From the human T2T-CHM13v2.0 reference genome, Homo sapiens: DNA of 64,000 bases. Positions 1,852-57,559 of the stretch are shown here, in pieces. The stretch lies in the NCBI RefSeq assembly GCF_009914755.1, contig NC_060941.1; one strand, given 5' to 3'. Both the position numbers and the translations under genes were made by a program. Below the pieces are notes generated by a model. The model did not search any database. It worked only from the letters and a program-made list of their open reading frames with translations, and was not told where the DNA came from. How positions within the stretch are numbered: the first letter of the stretch is position 1; every line of letters starts with the position of its first letter.

Positions 1852-2484
1852 ATGGAACCACTACGCCTAGTAAATTGTTTTTTTTAAGGTCCCAAGAGAC
1901 ATAGGAGAGAAACTATTGGTTACTGGACATTCACCAAGTGTCAGTCATAGTTCTAAGCGCTTGTACATGAATCAGCTCAGTAATCTTAAAACCAAAACCA
2001 GAACCAAACAAACCGCCGCCCACCCCCTGGGGAGAGTGCAGTGATTCTCACTCATCAGATGAGACAAAGGAAGCCCAGAGAGGTTCCATAACTTGCTTGA
2101 GATCCTACAGCTAGGTGGCAAATCCAGGGCTCAGAGCCAGCCCATTTGGCCCGTGAGCAGCATTCTTCACCACCAAGCACACCCCACTGCCAGTCTTTAA
2201 CCCAGTTATTCATTCAGTCCTCACAGCACATGATCGACAGGAGTCATTTCCTACCCACTTGCTTTTCTCGGGTTAGATGGGGTAACTGACGCTGATAAAG
2301 TTTAAATATTAGGTTGGAGCAAAAGTAATTGTGGCTTTGCCATTTTAATGGCAAAACCCTAATAATTTGCTTAGTGCCATTCAATGACTTGGGGCTGGCT
2401 AGCCAGGGAGCCAAAGCGTGTTGCATCTGTTTTCACTTCCCCAGGCCTTAGTGGTGCGGTCTAAGGCTCGCCCTCTGCCACACA

Positions 2485-2937
2485 TCCTCCTGTCCCTCCT
2501 CCCGGCAGCTCCTCCTCCTCCTCGTCCTCCTCCTCGTCCTCCTCCACCCCCTCTCCCTCCACCTCCTCCTCTCCCTCCTCCTTTTCCCCCCGTACCCCTC
2601 CGCCCCCCGGGGCCCTGCCCTGCGGGTCTCACCTGCCGCTCGGCGGGGTCCCGGCGGGGGCCGGACAGCGCCACCTGGCGGCAGGTGGACGCCCGCGCAG
2701 CGCATGCTAATGAGCCCGCGTCGTCGCTCGCGGATTGGCTGGCGCGGATTCCAGCTGCTTTCCAAGTTGGAGGCGCCTAGTGAGGGTCAGGGAGGCCCGG
2801 CCCGCGCCCTCCCCGCCCAGCCGCCTCCCCGTCGACCACCCAGGGCTGGGGCGAGCCAGGCTGCCTTTCGAACTTGGGGGCTTCTCCTCTTGTCTCCCAC
2901 TGGTGCTCTGGCCGTGAATCCATCCAGGCGCCAGGAG
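2485..2937 (+). promoter_or_regulatory. Duplicated RGS9-like CpG-island promoter and 5' UTR
   Basis: About 19 differences in ~330 nt versus 39186-39514; CpGs retained; same CTCF-like (2668-2681), NRF1-like (2700-2707), ATTGG (2734-2738) and GC-box motifs; (CCT)n tract upstream. Confidence 0.85.
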
Positions 2938-2994
2938 ATGACAATCCGATACCAAGGCCGGCAGTACAGGCTGAGGATGGCATTTCTCCAAAAG
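2938..2994 (+). CDS. Paralogous RGS9 first exon (MTIRYQGRQYRLRMAFLQK), candidate alternative exon 1
   Basis: 54/57 nt identical to exon 1; ATG with G at -3; intact phase-0 donor AAG|GTAACC. Usage is inferred, not shown. Confidence 0.65.
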
Positions 2995-3727
2995 GTAACC
3001 CTGGCCCCTTACCTGGGCCCTGGAGTGCCGGGGACCACATCTGGGAAGCGTCCGAGGACACGTGGGGCAGGAGTGGAGGGCACCCCTTTGGGTCGATTTG
3101 TGCAGCTCGATTTCATTAAGTGACTGGTGTGAGTTGTGATAAAGACAATTCCGTTTAGGTTTCCAAGCTGCGTCCTGGGCCTGGAGACTGAGACAGAGAT
3201 CCACGGACTGCAGTGCAGGCAGCCCACCCCAGCTCCGAGTCATATAAGGTAACCCAGACAACCACCTACGAATTTAAAGCTCCTATAAGTTGCCCTTTCT
3301 GCATCCGAAGTGTGATATTTGAAAGTTAAAAACGTTATCTTACATACATAGATCTTAAAACGTATCTTACACCACAACCTACTCACAGATGCAAAGGCAG
3401 TGGTCATGGTCTTCCATTGCTTGGGGTCCTGGGGCCGGGTTTGAGGCTGAATGTCAGGGTTTCCTTTGCCATAACCTCATTCTGCACCACGTGCTGTCAG
3501 CCAGGCAGCCAATGTGGACTTGGAGGCTGGCATCTGCTGGGCACTGCTCGAGGTACCAGGGACACAGTGATGAGCAAAACGAGCATGGCCCCTGCCCTCA
3601 AAGTCCCTTGAGGCTAAATGGCCCACCCAAGGGCAGCTTAACAGTGCCCAGCCTTGGGGGATGTGGGCTGATGGAGGACTGGGCCCACCACAAGGTACCT
3701 TAGGGTGCCCCCAGTCAAATATATCTA

Positions 3728-4026
3728 CTTTTTTTTTTTTTTTTTGAGACAGTCTCACTCTCTTGTCCAGGCTGGAGTGCAGTGGTGCAATCTTGGCTCT
3801 CTGCAACCTCCACCTCCCAGGTTCAAGCGATTCTCCTGTCTCAGCCTCCCGAGTAGCTGGGATTACAGGTGCGCACCATCACACCTGGCTAATTTTTATA
3901 TTTTTAGTAGAGGCGGGGTTTCACTATGTTGGCCAGGCTGATCTCGAACTCCTGACCTCAAGTGATCAGCCCCCTTCGGCCTCCCAAAGTGCTGGGATTA
4001 CAGGCATGAGTCACTGCGCCCGGCCA
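3728..4026 (-). mobile_element. Alu (S-like)
   Basis: Poly(T) followed by antisense Alu consensus. Confidence 0.95.
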
Positions 4027-4625
4027 AATACATCTTTCTAGAGGAGCCAAGCTCCCTCAGCCAGCCAATGGCAGAGCTGCAGGTGAATGGCATCAGATGG
4101 TGTCGACATCCCACCCAACATCAGGGACTTCCACTGTAAGTGCCCGAGCCTCTCTGCTCAGGGGGTTTTCTCTGGCCATAGGAACATGACTGCCACACAT
4201 GTGGCCAGAGTGCCAGGGAGTGGATGCCCCCTGGATCAGCCTGCAACTGATAGTGAAAGACAGTTGCTTGATGAAAAGTACCAAGCTTCCTCCCCACCGG
4301 GTATGGCTCTTCTGAGGGTGTTCTATGTTGTTTCTCCCAGAGGCTCCCAGTAGGACAGAACTCAGGTGGCCCACGGGGGTTGCTGCTCATGAATGAGCCC
4401 TGTATTGTCCACCTTACTTACCCTGTCCCACCTCCCCAGGCACCAGCCGCTTTCAGGAGTCAATCTTCCCACCCATGCGACAGGCTAGTTCAATTATTAT
4501 CTCCGTTTTACAGGTAAGGAAACTGAGGCTGGTAAGGGCTAACACTAGAAGAATTGTTGACATGATACAGAAAAGCTGGTCTCACTACAATTGTAGAAAC
4601 ATAATTATTTATTTTATTATTATTA

Positions 4626-54860: not shown

Positions 54861-55455
54861 GTCACTGTCGTTTCTCACCTGGGCTGTATGCAATAGCTTT
54901 GAATAGGTCACTGCACTTTTTTCTACCTCTGCAAACTTCTTCACACTTCAGTGTTCTTCTCTCTGTCATGGGCCAAATTTCCAGAACGCTCTCTAGGAAC
55001 AGTCACTGGAATAAAATCCACACTGCAGGGGTGGCTTTGAGGTCCATGTGGTCTGGCCTCCACTGGCTTTTCCAGCTGCAACTCCTGCTGTTTTCTGTTC
55101 CACTAACCCTGGGAGCTGTCATCCTTCCATGCCTTTGCCCATGGTGTTCTATCACTTTCTGTTCAGCAAAATCCTTTCTTGTTAAGCTCCATCTTTCCTT
55201 AAAAGCCACCCCAGAATCTCCCAGTCAGGATGAATCTGCGAGTCTTCACATGCAGGGATGGGATCTGTGTCTGTGGAGCACACCTTAGTCCTGGTTGCAT
55301 TAGAGTCACTCAGTGCCCACCTGGCTCCTGTACCAGATGGGGAACCCCTGTGTCCACCTTTGCATTTTGAGGTCCCTCTCAGTGCAGTGGAAATTGCCCT
55401 GCACAACTTTCAAAATTGTTCTCGTCAGTCGGCTTTTTCCTGTTCTGTCTTGCAG

Positions 55456-55552
55456 ATTGAAGCGCTCGTGAAGGACATGCAGAACCCAGAGACAGGGGTC
55501 CGAATGCAGAACCAGAGGGTCCTGGTCACCAGCGTTCCTCATGCCATGACAG
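55456..55552 (+). CDS. RGS9: RGS9 coding exon 2 ([33 protein letters not shown])
   Basis: Acceptor tctgtcttgcag, donor G|GTGATG; 97 nt; in frame with exon 1; start of DEP region. Confidence 0.97.
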
Positions 55553-55643
55553 GTGATGTAGCTTGCACTTTAGTCTTGGCCTGGAATAGACCCCACAGGC
55601 CCAATACGGCCCACCTCCTGTGTTTGTAAAAAACTTTATTTTT

Positions 55644-56335
55644 GGCCAGGTGCAGTGGCTCACGCCTGTAATCCCAGCACTTTGGGAGGCCGAGGCGGGT
55701 GGATCACAAGGTCAGGAGATCAAGACCATCCTGGCTAACACGGTGAAACCTTGTCTCTATTAAAATACAAAAAATTAGCTGGGCATGGTGGCAGGTGCCT
55801 ATAGTCCCAGCTACTCGGGAGGATGAGGCAGGAGAATGGCCTGAACCTGGGAGGCAGAGCTTTCAGTGAGCAGAGATTGCGCCATTGCACTCCAGCCTGG
55901 GCGACAGAGCGAGACTCCGTCTCAAACAAAACAAAACAAAACAAAACAAAGCTTTATTTCTAAATAAAGTTTTATTGGAACATATCCATGTTCACTCATT
56001 TATGTATTGTCTATGGCTGCTCTTACACTACAATGGCAGAGTTAAAATATATAGTTGTGGCCAGGCACAGTGGCTTACACCTACAATCCCAGCACTTTGG
56101 GAGGCCGAGGCAGGTGGATCACCTGAGGTCGGGAGTTCGAGACCGGCCTGACCAACATGGTGAAACCCCATCTCTTCTAAAAATACAAAAATTAGCCAGG
56201 CATGGTGGTGCATGCCTGTAATCCCAGCTACTCGGGAGGCTGAGGCATGAGAATCACTTGAACCCGGGAGGCGGAGTTTGCAGTGAGCCAAGATCGCACC
56301 ACTGCACTCCAGCCTGGGTGACAGAACAAGACTCC
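55644..56335 (+). mobile_element. Two sense Alus (55644-55950 Y-like, 56059-56335) inside a MER58-like relic
   Basis: Alu consensus; flanking TAAATAAAGTTTTATTGGAACA is typical of MER58. Confidence 0.88.
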
Positions 56336-57559
56336 CACAAAGCTGAAATGTTTATTTACTATCTAGCGCTCTACAGAGTACATTTGCTGACTCCTGGACT
56401 AAAGTCTTCCTCTGAGGAAGGGGTCAGGAGGGAGAAAAGGACTCAACAGGTCATTTCTTGAAGCCATTCCTCCCAGAAGGTCATTTTAGAAACCTTCACT
56501 GTCATTTTTTGTTTTGTTGTTTTGTTTGCTTTGTTTTAATGAAACCAAGTAGCAGAAAAAAAAATACTATTTAGCAGAAAAAAGTTGGCCTTTGTTTTGC
56601 TCCACCGTTTACCTTCTAATTCATTTCAGGCCCTTCTCAACTGCCCTGTGGGAGTGGTGCCACTGTCTCCTCTCTGTGTGTGGGGGTGAGGTGCCTACAG
56701 AGCATCATTTGGGGATATTGGCAAGAAGGGCTGGACGCCAATATTAAGAGAGCATTTTGGTTAATGTGTTACCTGTTTTCTGATCTTGATTTTGCAGTAA
56801 AGACAATGTTTCATACTTAGGCGTATTGCCTGCAGAAGCAGACAGCTTCTCATAGCCCAAGCCCGGGCCTCACCACGGCTGTGCTCAATGTGAGGCCTCC
56901 CTCTCTATGCCACCCCTGACCTGACTATTTATTTTTCACTCAAGGTGCCCTAGTCTTTGCAGAGACAAGCTGGCTCACAGCTTCCCCTTTCCCTTTCTGA
57001 CTGCTTAGAAGAAAGGATGCCCCCACCAGCAATGTGTCACTCAGGTTTCCTTGCATGCAAGCAACAGAAGACCCACTCTTTTGTTGGAGCAAAAGGGGAA
57101 GTAATTGAAATGCTATAGAGCAGCTCATGGAGGAAAAGGAAACACTGACAAGCCAGACTTTGGAAAGGCCAAGAACCAGCGTAGCTCTGGGCACCCAAAG
57201 AGTGGAAACAGGGGGCAGACTTTTCAGGGTGCCTTTGTGTCCCCCATCACCTCAGATGCAGCTGGGGCAATTCTTCCTGAAGGCATCCCTGACCCTGTCC
57301 CCCTCCCTGCCTTTGACTGTCATTAATTTTGGCCTGAATTCTCTACTGGACTGGGGCCCTTTAAGGGAAAGTACCTTGTCTTGCTCATCTGGGTAATCCC
57401 AATGCTTCTCAGAGCTGTGTTTGTAACAGATGGTTAGTAAAAGTTTATTGAATGCATGAGTCACTTATTGTCTGTCCTTGTGTGGAGAGTGAAGGATTAA
57501 ATCCTTCAGGTGTCTTTTCTAGCTGTAGCCCTGGTCTCAGTTTACTTTCTCCATTGTTT

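What the first reader, a model, noticed from the sequence alone, without database searches (positions are those of the whole stretch)
2460..57330. Hidden ancient tandem duplication of the RGS9 5' end creates a second promoter/exon-1 unit 36.6 kb upstream
Seen: at least seven collinear, same-orientation homology blocks link ~2460-18160 to ~39100-57330 (promoter/exon 1; 5310-6070 vs 42943-43332; 6900-7208 vs 46225-46558; 7895-8205 vs 47870-48195; 8431-9013 vs 49005-49557; exon 2; 17850-17937 vs 56868-56951). Alus are copy-specific: a J-like Alu at 5618 splits a block that is intact at ~43210, and the Alus at 48344-48942 are absent upstream. L2/MIR relics appear at equivalent positions in both copies. 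Inference: the duplication predates Alu amplification and is too diverged for standard segmental-duplication criteria, so the upstream region is a truncated RGS9 paralogue rather than anonymous intergenic DNA.
Basis: partly seen in the sequence, partly recalled or inferred. Interest (0 to 1): 0.9.

Follow-up and report, generated by a model that had tools for sequence, protein, structure and literature searches.

The report
Old partial RGS9 duplicate, now lncRNA
A very old, decayed copy of the promoter and first two exons of the RGS9 gene lies about 37 kb upstream of the gene, has had its promoter and first exon refreshed from RGS9 much more recently, and is transcribed today as the long non-coding RNA known as LUESCC.

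Summary
Seven same-strand, same-order blocks link window ~2474-12812 to ~39085-55594, with the offset growing from 36,579 to 42,781. Shuffled and reversed controls give nothing comparable. The blocks have no other match in the human genome, so they are not transposon families.

The duplicate covers the RGS9 CpG-island promoter, exon 1, intron 1, exon 2 and the first tens of bases of intron 2.

Intron blocks and exon 2 differ by K2P 0.27-0.51, but a sharply bounded ~525-bp promoter/exon-1 core differs by only 0.05-0.07. The best reading is an old duplication followed by a later gene conversion.

The upstream copy is a truncated pseudogene. Its exon 2 has a 1-bp deletion, 33% substitutions spread evenly over codon positions, and a lost splice donor.

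It is not anonymous DNA. RefSeq lncRNA LOC100507002 (LUESCC) uses the equivalent start site, exon-1 donor and exon-2 acceptor. No paper found links it to RGS9.

This is a known kind of event with a new member. Dating across species could not be done here.

The parts
2474..2599 (+). 5' edge of the upstream copy. It is a CCT-rich tract, with (CTC)n at 2509-2582. Its partner is 39085-39179, which holds a 22-bp unit x2.8 at 39118-39178. No similarity is found upstream of it.
   Evidence: The 'pre' flank control gave z = 0.9.
2600..3125 (+). High-identity core of the upstream copy: CpG-island promoter, exon 1 and the first ~130 bp of intron 1. It is the inferred gene-conversion tract, and its partner is 39180-39706.
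   Evidence: Identity is 93.6% over 529 aligned bases, and 0.78-1.0 per 40-column window between ~2595 and ~3125 (most windows 0.88-1.0, with a dip to 0.78-0.80 just after the exon-1 donor), against 0.28-0.65 in the flanks. GC is 0.67 and CpG o/e 0.70. One search finds exactly two copies in the genome.
39180..39706 (+). RGS9 core: promoter, exon 1 (39344-39571, ATG at 39515) and the start of intron 1. Its partner is 2600-3125.
   Evidence: Of the CpG sites, 35 are shared, 8 are upstream-only and 7 are RGS9-only.
2764..2994 (+). Exon 1 of lncRNA LOC100507002 (LUESCC). It is the positional equivalent of RGS9 exon 1. The start site is 1 bp from the equivalent position, and the donor CAAAAG|gtaaccct is identical. 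The RGS9-type ATG is at 2938, followed by 19 codons with 3 amino-acid changes (H5Y, Q8R, P12L).
   Evidence: plus the annotation given with the finding.
2633..2664 (-). First exon of the divergent lncRNA LOC105371864. It lies inside the core. The exon and its CAG|GTGAG donor are also present at the equivalent RGS9 position (39212-39243), where RefSeq annotates no antisense transcript.
3159..3248 (+). Middle exon of the lncRNA, 90 nt, just outside the high-identity tract. RGS9 has no annotated counterpart.
5033..5254 (+). Weak collinear intron-1 block. Its partner is 42332-42553.
   Evidence: nhmmer E is 6e-4 to 1.8e-3. It is not significant alone, but it lies on the chain.
5300..6493 (+). Intron-1 block, interrupted by an upstream-specific Alu at 5610-5944. 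Its partner is 42933-43724, which is uninterrupted.
5610..5944 (+). Alu inserted after the duplication into the upstream copy only. It is the most diverged of the 40 Alu-sized elements I could rank.
   Evidence: Median pairwise identity is 74.6% and 5 CpG remain.
6854..7212 (+). Intron-1 block. Its partner is 46174-46561.
7900..8225 (+). Intron-1 block. Its partner is 47874-48215.
8413..9025 (+). The best-preserved intron-1 block. Its partner is 48988-49568.
   Evidence: Identity is 72% with gaps counted, K2P is 0.27, and the pair is the only match in the genome search.
9018..11692 (+). Dispersed-repeat sequence with two Alus inside (9247-9561, 10439-10760). It starts exactly where the block above ends. 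No counterpart was detected in RGS9 intron 1.
   Evidence: (3054 first-look candidates genome-wide).
12631..12812 (+). Exon-2 homologue with its flanks. Its partner is 55412-55594 (RGS9 exon 2 is 55456-55552). The acceptor is kept, there is a 1-bp deletion, and the donor has changed from GT to GC.
12675..13054 (+). Terminal exon of the lncRNA. It starts at the old exon-2 acceptor, reads through the lost donor, and ends at an AATAAA at 13049-13054. That signal lies inside a dispersed repeat (~12940-13060).
12813..39084 (.). The 26-kb spacer between the two copies. No homology was detected to RGS9 downstream sequence or to the 40 kb upstream. No relics of RGS9 exons 3-6 were found.
17736..18083 (+). 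Possible extension of the duplicate into intron 2. Its partner is 56763-57076. It is marginal.
42933..43724 (+). RGS9 intron-1 partner of 5300-6493.
46174..46561 (+). RGS9 intron-1 partner of 6854-7212.
47874..48215 (+). RGS9 intron-1 partner of 7900-8225.
48340..48955 (+). Two tandem Alus inserted only in the RGS9 copy. They are flanked by repeats of AGAAAATC.
48988..49568 (+). RGS9 intron-1 partner of 8413-9025.
55412..55594 (+). RGS9 exon 2 (55456-55552) with its flanks. It is the partner of 12631-12812.

Best explanation
STEP 1, SHOWN. A segment of RGS9 was duplicated in direct orientation to a place now 36.6 kb upstream. It ran from about 250 bp before the transcription start, through exon 1, intron 1 and exon 2, to at least ~40 bp into intron 2.

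STEP 2, SHOWN. The upstream copy decayed as an unprocessed, truncated pseudogene. Its exon 2 carries a 1-bp deletion, 32 differences in 96 bases spread evenly over codon positions, and a GT-to-GC change at the donor. Both copies then took up their own Alus and other repeats. That is why the upstream copy is now ~10.4 kb and the RGS9 copy ~16.5 kb.

STEP 3, INFERRED. Much later, a ~525-bp tract was homogenised between the copies by non-allelic gene conversion. The tract covers the CpG-island promoter, exon 1 and the first ~130 bp of intron 1. The most likely direction is from RGS9 into the decayed copy, because overwriting the working gene with pseudogene sequence would be harmful. This left the upstream copy with an intact CpG island, start site, ATG and exon-1 donor.

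STEP 4, SHOWN FROM ANNOTATION PLUS SEQUENCE. The upstream promoter fires at the equivalent start site. The transcript splices from the duplicated exon-1 donor, through a new 90-nt exon, into the old exon-2 acceptor. It reads past the dead donor and ends at an AATAAA inside a dispersed repeat. This is RefSeq lncRNA LOC100507002, called LUESCC in the literature. From the RGS9-type ATG it can encode only 29 residues, or 49 if the middle exon is skipped.

AGE, INFERRED FROM RECALLED SUBSTITUTION RATES. The duplication is of the order of 10^8 years old, around or before the radiation of placental mammals. The last homogenisation of the core is a few tens of millions of years old.
For: DUPLICATION.
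- Seven blastn blocks, or five after repeat excision, all lie on the + strand in the same order.
- nhmmer recovers all of them.
- Controls are empty apart from simple repeats.
- By my own arithmetic, five independent blocks sharing one order and one strand by chance has probability 1/(5! x 2^5) = 1/3840.
- In a 144-kb self-comparison this is the only collinear series.

NOT TRANSPOSONS.
- The core has 2 matches in the genome.
- 8400-9050 and 48980-49590 each find only themselves and each other.
- 6880-7200 finds itself and its partner.
- 5250-5609 and 7890-8230 find only themselves.
- The same tool does find true dispersed repeats: 148 and 3054 candidates.

INSERTIONS AFTER THE DUPLICATION.

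TWO AGES.
- K2P is 0.067 in the core (0.053 without CpG sites). It is 0.27-0.37 in five intron blocks and 0.51 around exon 2.
- Identity steps from <=0.65 to >=0.90 near 2600, and from 0.88 to 0.57-0.47 near 3125.
- The chance of <=34 mismatches in 529 sites at a background mismatch rate of 0.22 is 1e-22.

AGAINST SELECTION AS THE CAUSE OF CORE IDENTITY.
- Identity is high (0.78 or more per 40-column window) in all four parts: promoter, 5'UTR, coding part and intron.
- All 3 coding differences change the amino acid.

PSEUDOGENE STATE.
TRANSCRIPT EQUIVALENCE.
NO EXONS 3-6 UPSTREAM.
Against: - No outgroup species could be examined. The age, the direction of conversion, and conversion itself (as opposed to constraint) are therefore inferred from one genome.
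- Both cores are CpG islands with symmetrical CpG loss: 35 shared, 8 upstream-only and 7 RGS9-only. Strong promoter constraint on both copies is not excluded.
- Between the blocks, homology is barely above natural-sequence controls: z 1.0, 2.3 and 2.6 for the three gaps. Only about 3.4 kb of the 8.4 kb of unmasked upstream copy is alignable.
- The 26-kb spacer is unexplained by a simple tandem event.
- Core substitutions are 17 transitions to 17 transversions, which is unusual for neutral change.
- Absolute dates rest on recalled rates.
Confidence: 0.8

Rival explanations
1. There was one ancient duplication and no gene conversion. On this view the promoter/exon-1 core stayed ~94% identical because both CpG-island promoters are under strong purifying selection.
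For: - Both cores keep GC 0.67, CpG o/e 0.70 and 42 CpG each.
- CpG loss is symmetrical.
- Both carry annotated start sites, and RefSeq marks both as 'silencer' elements.
Against: - Identity stays high (0.78 or more per 40-column window) across promoter, 5'UTR, coding sequence and ~130 bp of intron. It then falls within ~20-40 bp on each side. Constraint is usually patchy.
- The 3 coding differences are all amino-acid changes, so the upstream ATG exon is not under coding constraint, yet it is as similar as the rest.
- Exon 2 of the same copy decayed to 67% identity.
Confidence: 0.12
2. The duplicated unit was much larger, running through exon 3 and beyond. On this view the 26-kb 'spacer' is its decayed remainder, so the event was a true abutting tandem duplication.
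For: - nhmmer finds a weak hit on the + strand, in the right order: 17736-18083 vs 56763-57076 in RGS9 intron 2.
- Both members are single-copy in the genome search.
- By my rough arithmetic from the hit list, a random old-repeat pair would fall in that collinear area with a chance of about 0.06.
Against: - tblastn with RGS9 residues 1-141 and blastn with exons 3-6 plus flanks find nothing collinear in 12800-39100.
- No further blocks link the spacer to RGS9 as far as window coordinate 104000, apart from scattered dispersed-repeat hits.
- The 16-bit hit is no stronger than those scattered hits.
Confidence: 0.15
3. The upstream unit is a working alternative promoter and first exon of RGS9. Its exon-1 donor would splice across ~52 kb to RGS9 exon 2. 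The result would be RGS9 with a 3-residue variant N-terminus.
For: - The donor is identical to that of RGS9.
- The ATG exon is open and is 57 nt long, as in RGS9. A join to RGS9 exon 2 is in frame.
Against: - All 3 RefSeq RGS9 mRNAs start at 39344. The only annotated transcript from the upstream start site ends at 13054 (and the annotation given).
- No paper found describes such an isoform.
- No transcript data could be examined here.
Confidence: 0.07
4. The blocks are chance similarities, or independent insertions of the same transposon families, and no duplication took place.
For: - Many weak scattered hits from old dispersed repeats exist in the region.
- The RefSeq mask misses old repeats.
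Against: - The blocks share one order and one strand and have genome-unique partners.
- The exon/intron structure is shared, including the start site, a donor and an acceptor.
- Controls are empty.
Confidence: 0.01

Closest known systems
Unprocessed (duplicated) partial pseudogenes that are transcribed as lncRNAs
   Same: - It keeps the parent's promoter, exon-intron layout and intron homology.
- It is truncated, and its coding exon is disabled.
- It is transcribed from the inherited promoter and uses inherited splice sites.
   Different: - RefSeq lists it only as 'uncharacterized' lncRNA, not as an RGS9 pseudogene.
- Its promoter/exon 1 is far younger-looking than the rest.
Gene/pseudogene pairs that exchange sequence by non-allelic gene conversion (CYP21A2/CYP21A1P and GBA1/GBAP1 are examples recalled from memory, not tested here)
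   Same: The two copies are close together in direct orientation on one chromosome. A short tract is much more similar than its flanks.
   Different: - Those pairs are >90% identical over kilobases, and conversion is documented in patients and across species.
- Here the background is ~65-72% identical.
- Only one ~525-bp tract is similar.
- Conversion is inferred from a single genome.
Segmental duplications as catalogued (at least 1 kb and at least 90% identity; criteria recalled)
   Same: It is an intrachromosomal copy of unique genomic sequence that includes gene parts.
   Different: It fails both thresholds. The best block is 603 columns at 89.6%, and the rest are 65-72% identical. Such catalogues would therefore not list it.
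Arrays of duplicated promoter plus first-exon units spliced to shared downstream exons (clustered protocadherins and UGT1A; recalled)
   Same: A duplicated promoter/first-exon unit lies upstream of the gene in the same orientation. Its donor is intact and its frame is compatible.
   Different: No transcript joining the upstream exon 1 to RGS9 exon 2 is annotated. The upstream unit has its own decayed exon 2 and its own polyadenylation site.

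Membership tests
Partial (truncated) unprocessed duplicate of RGS9 | Homology to the parent in exons AND in introns and promoter, in the same order and orientation | tested here: met
   The promoter/exon 1, five intron-1 blocks and exon 2 all lie on the + strand and are collinear.
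Partial (truncated) unprocessed duplicate of RGS9 | The homologous blocks are specific to the two loci and are not members of dispersed repeat families | tested here: met
   Searches find only self and partner, or self alone where identity is ~65%. That level is below the tool's reach, so the test is weak for those two blocks. No repeat library was available.
Partial (truncated) unprocessed duplicate of RGS9 | Disabling lesions or truncation relative to the parent | tested here: met
   - Exon 2 has a 1-bp deletion and its donor has changed from GT to GC.
- Differences are even over codon positions: 10 of 33, 10 of 32 and 12 of 31.
- No exons 3-6 were found.
Catalogued segmental duplication | At least 1 kb at 90% identity or more (threshold recalled) | tested here: not met
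   In one search the longest and best block is 603 columns at 89.6%. The others are 65-72% identical.
Simple tandem duplication (abutting copies) | The end of copy 1 directly adjoins the start of copy 2, or the intervening DNA is itself part of the repeated unit | tested here: not met
   The 26-kb spacer 12813-39084 has no detectable homology to the 40 kb upstream or to RGS9 downstream. Insertion of the spacer after the event cannot be excluded.
Non-allelic gene conversion tract | A segment with sharply lower divergence than both flanks of the same duplicated pair | tested here: met
   K2P is 0.067 in the tract against 0.27-0.51 elsewhere. The edges are step-like near 2600 and 3125. Binomial P is 1e-22.
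Non-allelic gene conversion tract | Across species, the tract groups by species and not by copy | not testable with these tools
Alternative promoter/first exon of RGS9 | Transcripts that join the upstream exon 1 to RGS9 exon 2 | tested here: not met
   RefSeq rows show 3 of 3 RGS9 mRNAs starting at 39344. The upstream transcript ends at 13054. Only the annotation was checked, not RNA data.
Alternative promoter/first exon of RGS9 | Intact donor and a compatible reading frame | tested here: met
   One search shows an identical donor and a 57-nt coding part that is in frame with exon 2.
Duplication older than Alu expansion | Alus inside the duplicated segment are specific to one copy | tested here: met
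   - Two cases are shown directly by excision and flanks: 5610-5944 and 48340-48955.
- For most of the others, the interval between the same anchors in the other copy holds no masked repeat.
- The interval 9019-12649 vs 49562-55430 is undetermined.
- Alu subfamilies were not assigned.

The most novel reading that the evidence does not exclude
The two promoter/exon-1 units may still be exchanging sequence, or the upstream unit may be used by RGS9.

One version: gene conversion is recurrent. It could then copy the upstream variants into RGS9's start-codon exon. Those variants are three amino-acid changes and a 2-bp insertion just before the ATG.

Other version: the upstream promoter drives an RGS9 isoform, or competes with the RGS9 promoter. 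That would tie expression of the cancer-linked lncRNA LUESCC to regulation of RGS9.
Probability: 0.1. Interest if true: 0.6.

Novelty: new member of a known kind. Interest (0 to 1): 0.45.

Why it matters
1. It gives an origin to an 'uncharacterized' lncRNA that several cancer papers study as LUESCC. Its promoter and first exon are an RGS9 promoter and first exon, ~94% identical to the working ones. Its last exon begins at a dead RGS9 exon 2.

2. About a third of the 701-nt lncRNA (exon 1, 231 nt) is near-identical to the RGS9 5' end. Primers, antisense oligos, methylation probes and promoter reporters aimed at either locus could therefore cross-react. The reagent tables of the LUESCC papers are in supplements that I could not open.

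3. It shows that a partial gene duplicate below segmental-duplication thresholds can hide next to a disease gene. RGS9 is the gene mutated in bradyopsia (recalled). One short tract of that duplicate has been kept young.

4. If conversion is ongoing, variants in RGS9 exon 1 that match the upstream copy would have a ready explanation.

None of this is a new kind of biology.

Tried and rejected
1. GAPS BETWEEN BLOCKS. I ran global alignment of the repeat-excised gaps. Against locally shuffled sequence, z was 4.0-6.7. Against eight unrelated natural segments it was only 1.0, 2.3, 2.6 and (after exon 2) 1.6. I do not claim continuous homology.

2. DATING BY AN LTR PAIR. 9018-9243 and 11471-11692 are 83% identical direct repeats from a dispersed family (3054 candidates). 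A second repeated piece lies in the opposite order in the two copies (9739-9928 vs 11244-11427). It is therefore not a clean pair of LTRs from one insertion, and I dropped it as a clock.

3. MORE OF THE GENE UPSTREAM. tblastn with RGS9 residues 1-141, and blastn with exons 3-6 plus 100-bp flanks, gave only chance-level hits in 1-39100. One of them spans an exon junction, so it cannot be genomic homology.

4. SPACER HOMOLOGY. The spacer showed no homology to 40 kb on either side of the window.

5. blastn did not report it at E<=50. nhmmer gave a weak hit. I left it as inconclusive.

6. Rfam at gathering thresholds gave 0 matches in the window.

7. LITERATURE. Seven searches and passage look-ups in PMC10924007 and PMC12230507. 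'RGS9' occurs 0 times in both papers. By title or abstract, no listed paper links LOC100507002 / RP11-160O5.1 / LUESCC to RGS9. I saw only the listings of the other papers. Papers in subscription journals are not covered.

8. NOT DONE.
- Naming of repeat families, because no repeat library is available.
- Any cross-species comparison, because no mammalian genome other than this one is reachable.
- Any look at RNA or population data.
- Protein-database searches, because the coding remnants (19 and 32 residues) are too short for them.

Full report
WHAT WAS CLAIMED AND WHAT IS THERE.
It read them as an ancient tandem duplication of the RGS9 5' end.

I masked the window with the RefSeq repeat mask (71 stretches, 17,730 bases). 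I then compared 1-30000 with 30001-64000 by sensitive blastn. Seven + strand blocks came out in strict order:
- 2543-3138 vs 39122-39719 (89.6% of 603 columns).
- 5310-5609 vs 42943-43206 (65.7%).
- 5947-6067 vs 43215-43331 (68.3%).
- 6904-7176 vs 46226-46503 (67.3%).
- 7912-8205 vs 47886-48195 (65.5%).
- 8430-9019 vs 49005-49562 (72.0%).
- 12649-12809 vs 55430-55591 (66.5%).
The remaining hits of that search fall into three groups. Most are low-complexity matches (the CCT-rich tract at 2463-2615 and the (GT)n at 8355-8397). One is a short minus-strand match to a dispersed repeat (14441-14493 vs 42880-42931). One is an unrelated 102-bp exact match inside the spacer.

IS IT MORE THAN CHANCE?
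- With the target reversed there were 10 hits, all in the two low-complexity tracts. Of 20 local dinucleotide shuffles, 18 gave no hit and 2 gave one hit of at most 45.4 bits. The real blocks score 49.7-663 bits.
- nhmmer with 600-bp tiles is an independent method, and it recovers every block. It extends one of them (5946-6493 vs 43214-43724). It adds weak collinear blocks at 5033-5254 vs 42332-42553 and 7680-7774 vs 46710-46798.
- In the larger nhmmer run, 235 tiles gave 103 hits on the real target and 3 on the reversed target. All 3 were simple repeats.
- In a 144-kb self-comparison (the window plus 40 kb each side) this chain is the only collinear series.
- Five independent blocks sharing one order and one strand by chance has probability 1/3840. 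This is my arithmetic.

ARE THE BLOCKS TRANSPOSONS?
I searched the whole reference genome.
- The promoter/exon-1 block has exactly two places, self and RGS9, at 93%.
- 8400-9050 and 48980-49590 each find only themselves and each other, at 72%.
- 6880-7200 finds itself and its partner.
- 5250-5609 and 7890-8230 find only themselves. At ~65% identity their partners are below that tool's reach, so for these two the test is weaker.
- The same tool readily reports real dispersed repeats. It found 148 candidates for the last ~120 bp of the lncRNA and 3054 for 9018-9243.
So the blocks are locus-specific sequence.

ANATOMY.
- The 5' edge is a CCT-rich tract in both copies (2509-2582 and 39118-39178). 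Upstream of it there is no similarity (z = 0.9).
- The firm 3' edge is ~12812 / ~55594, about 40 bp into intron 2.
- When masked repeats are cut out, 5310-6067 aligns as one block with 42943-43331, and 7912-9019 as one block with 47886-49562.
- This proves that the Alu at 5610-5944 entered the upstream copy after the duplication. It also proves that the two Alus at 48340-48955 entered the RGS9 copy after it. Remnants of target-site repeats flank them.
- For most other masked repeats, the interval between the same anchors in the other copy holds no masked repeat.
- Right after the best block, the upstream copy holds ~2.7 kb of dispersed-repeat sequence with two Alus (9018-11692).
- RGS9 intron 1 holds a 20-bp minisatellite (40899-41328) that the upstream copy lacks.
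- Today the upstream copy is 10.4 kb (19% masked) and the RGS9 copy 16.5 kb (30% masked).
- About 3.4 kb of the 8.4 kb of unmasked upstream copy is alignable. This is my sum of the blocks.
- The stretches between blocks are hardly more similar than unrelated natural sequence: z 1.0-2.6. Against shuffles they look better: z 4.0-6.7.

TWO AGES IN ONE DUPLICATE.
- Kimura two-parameter distances are 0.27-0.37 for the five intron blocks and 0.51 around exon 2. For 2607-3138 vs 39186-39719 the distance is only 0.067, or 0.053 without CpG sites.
- In 40-column windows, identity is 0.28-0.65 up to ~2595. It is 0.78-1.0 from there to ~3125, with most windows at 0.88-1.0 and a dip to 0.78-0.80 just after the exon-1 donor. 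It then falls to 0.57 and to 0.47 and below.
- High identity holds across promoter, 5'UTR, the 57-nt coding part and the first ~130 bp of intron 1.
- The three coding differences all change the amino acid: H5Y, Q8R and P12L in the upstream copy. Coding constraint is therefore not what keeps it similar.
- The chance of so few mismatches at the background rate is ~1e-22.
- Both cores are CpG islands (GC 0.67, o/e 0.70, 42 CpG each). Their CpG differences are symmetrical: 35 shared, 8 upstream-only, 7 RGS9-only.
I read this as a later non-allelic gene conversion of a ~525-bp tract, most likely from RGS9 into the decayed copy. Constraint on two working promoters is the main rival. One genome cannot exclude it.

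STATE AND USE OF THE UPSTREAM COPY.
- Exon 1 is intact, with the ATG at 2938 and 19 codons. Its donor CAAAAG|gtaaccct is identical to that of RGS9.
- The exon-2 homologue keeps the acceptor. It also has a 1-bp deletion, so tblastn finds it in two frames.
- It has 32 differences in 96 bases, spread 10 of 33, 10 of 32 and 12 of 31 over codon positions. Its donor has changed from GT to GC.
- No trace of exons 3-6 was found anywhere in 1-39100.
- RefSeq lncRNA LOC100507002 starts at 2764, and the RGS9 start minus the offset is 2765. It uses the duplicated donor at 2994 and adds a 90-nt exon (3159-3248).
- It enters its last exon at 12675, exactly the RGS9 exon-2 acceptor minus 42,781. It ends at an AATAAA at 13049-13054 inside a dispersed repeat.
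- From the RGS9-type ATG it encodes 29 residues, or 49 without the middle exon.
- The divergent lncRNA LOC105371864 starts inside the core. Its first exon and its donor CAG|GTGAG are also present at the equivalent RGS9 position.

AGE.
- The Alu at 5610-5944 is specific to the upstream copy. It is the most diverged of the 40 Alu-sized elements that could be ranked. I put in 48 masked stretches of 260-345 bp from the 144 kb, and 8 dropped out for having fewer than 10 partners. Its median pairwise identity is 74.6% and it has 5 CpG left. The duplication is therefore older than one of the oldest Alus here.
- From recalled figures, neutral change on the human lineage since the common ancestor with mouse is roughly 0.15-0.2 substitutions per site. 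Two paralogues in one genome would then differ by ~0.3-0.4 after that time.
- The blocks give 0.27-0.37. They are the best-preserved part of a mostly unalignable intron, and exon 2 gives 0.51. So the event is of the order of 10^8 years old, around or before the placental radiation.
- The core distance of 0.05-0.07 is close to the recalled human-macaque divergence. The last homogenisation is therefore a few tens of millions of years old.
These dates are inferences, and only other genomes can settle them.

TANDEM OR NOT?
The copies are direct but do not abut. The 26-kb spacer (12813-39084) has no detectable homology to RGS9 downstream sequence or to the 40 kb upstream.

Both members are single-copy in the genome search. 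blastn does not report the pair, and it is no stronger than many scattered old-repeat hits. By rough arithmetic, such a pair has a ~0.06 chance of falling in the collinear area. The duplicate may therefore reach ~1.5 kb into intron 2, but I leave this open. How the spacer arose is unexplained.

WHAT IS KNOWN.
- PMC10924007 calls LOC100507002 'LUESCC or RP11-160O5.1'. It describes it as a lncRNA on 17q24.1, upregulated in oesophageal squamous carcinoma, that 'has never been reported before' (passages). 'RGS9', 'duplication' and 'paralog' occur 0 times in its main text.
- PMC12230507 likewise has 0 occurrences of 'RGS9' or 'pseudogene' (passages).
- The searches were: LOC100507002 (6 papers), RP11-160O5.1 (6), LUESCC (12), RGS9 with duplication/promoter/exon 1 (4), RGS9 with partial duplication (1), RGS9 with pseudogene/upstream/lncRNA (1) and 'RGS9 promoter' (3). 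By title or abstract, none listed a paper that makes the link.
- RefSeq names no RGS9 pseudogene.
- Genome-browser self-alignment tracks may well show the blocks. I could not check that.

VERDICT.
The duplication is real and old. Partial duplicates, transcribed pseudogene fragments and short conversion tracts are all familiar. This is a new member of a known kind, of moderate interest, with a practical warning for work on LUESCC and on the RGS9 promoter.

LIMITS.
- Only one genome was examined.
- No repeat library was available.
- No RNA or population data were examined.
- Absolute dates rest on recalled rates.

Noticed in passing
window 28803-29116 and 34920-35265: Two stretches about 310 bp long, 6.15 kb apart in the spacer, are ~98% identical, including 102 bp at 100%. 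They lie among Alus. This may be a small recent local duplication or a conversion.
   Followed up: partly
window 40899-41328: A C-rich minisatellite in RGS9 intron 1: 20-bp unit, ~21 copies, 70% matches. It is absent from the upstream copy. It explains the strong negative GC skew of 40001-42000.
   Followed up: partly
window 2531-2860 and 39034-39533: RefSeq marks both promoter copies as 'silencer' elements with consecutive numbers (silent region_8860 and silent region_8861). With ~94% identity, the two calls may not be independent.
   Followed up: no
window 39212-39243 (- strand): The RGS9 promoter copy keeps the sequence of the antisense lncRNA's first exon and its CAG|GTGAG donor. RefSeq annotates a divergent transcript only at the upstream copy (LOC105371864).
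   Followed up: partly
window 12940-13060: The polyadenylation signal and the last ~120 bp of lncRNA LOC100507002 lie in a dispersed repeat. It has 148 first-look candidates genome-wide, with matches of 73-90% identity. The family was not named.
   Followed up: partly
window 9018-11692: Pieces of a dispersed repeat (3054 candidates genome-wide) occur twice, 1.5-2.5 kb apart, in different order. Two Alus in opposite orientation lie between them. It looks like nested or rearranged retroelement remains specific to the upstream copy.
   Followed up: partly
window 23242-23418 and 23933-24112: An inverted repeat, 86% identical over 180 bp with arms ~500 bp apart, lies just upstream of the annotated hESC H3K27ac enhancers (24577-25640).
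   Followed up: no
window 8355-8397: A perfect (GT)21 microsatellite lies between two homologous blocks of the upstream copy. At the equivalent place the RGS9 copy has the two Alus instead.
   Followed up: no
window coordinates 78692-79569 (outside the window, L009; chr17:66046692-66047569): A strongly self-similar tandem structure, with several internal offsets of 154-646 bp at 68-70% identity. It lies within the annotated pseudogene ZNF848P inside an RGS9 intron.
   Followed up: no
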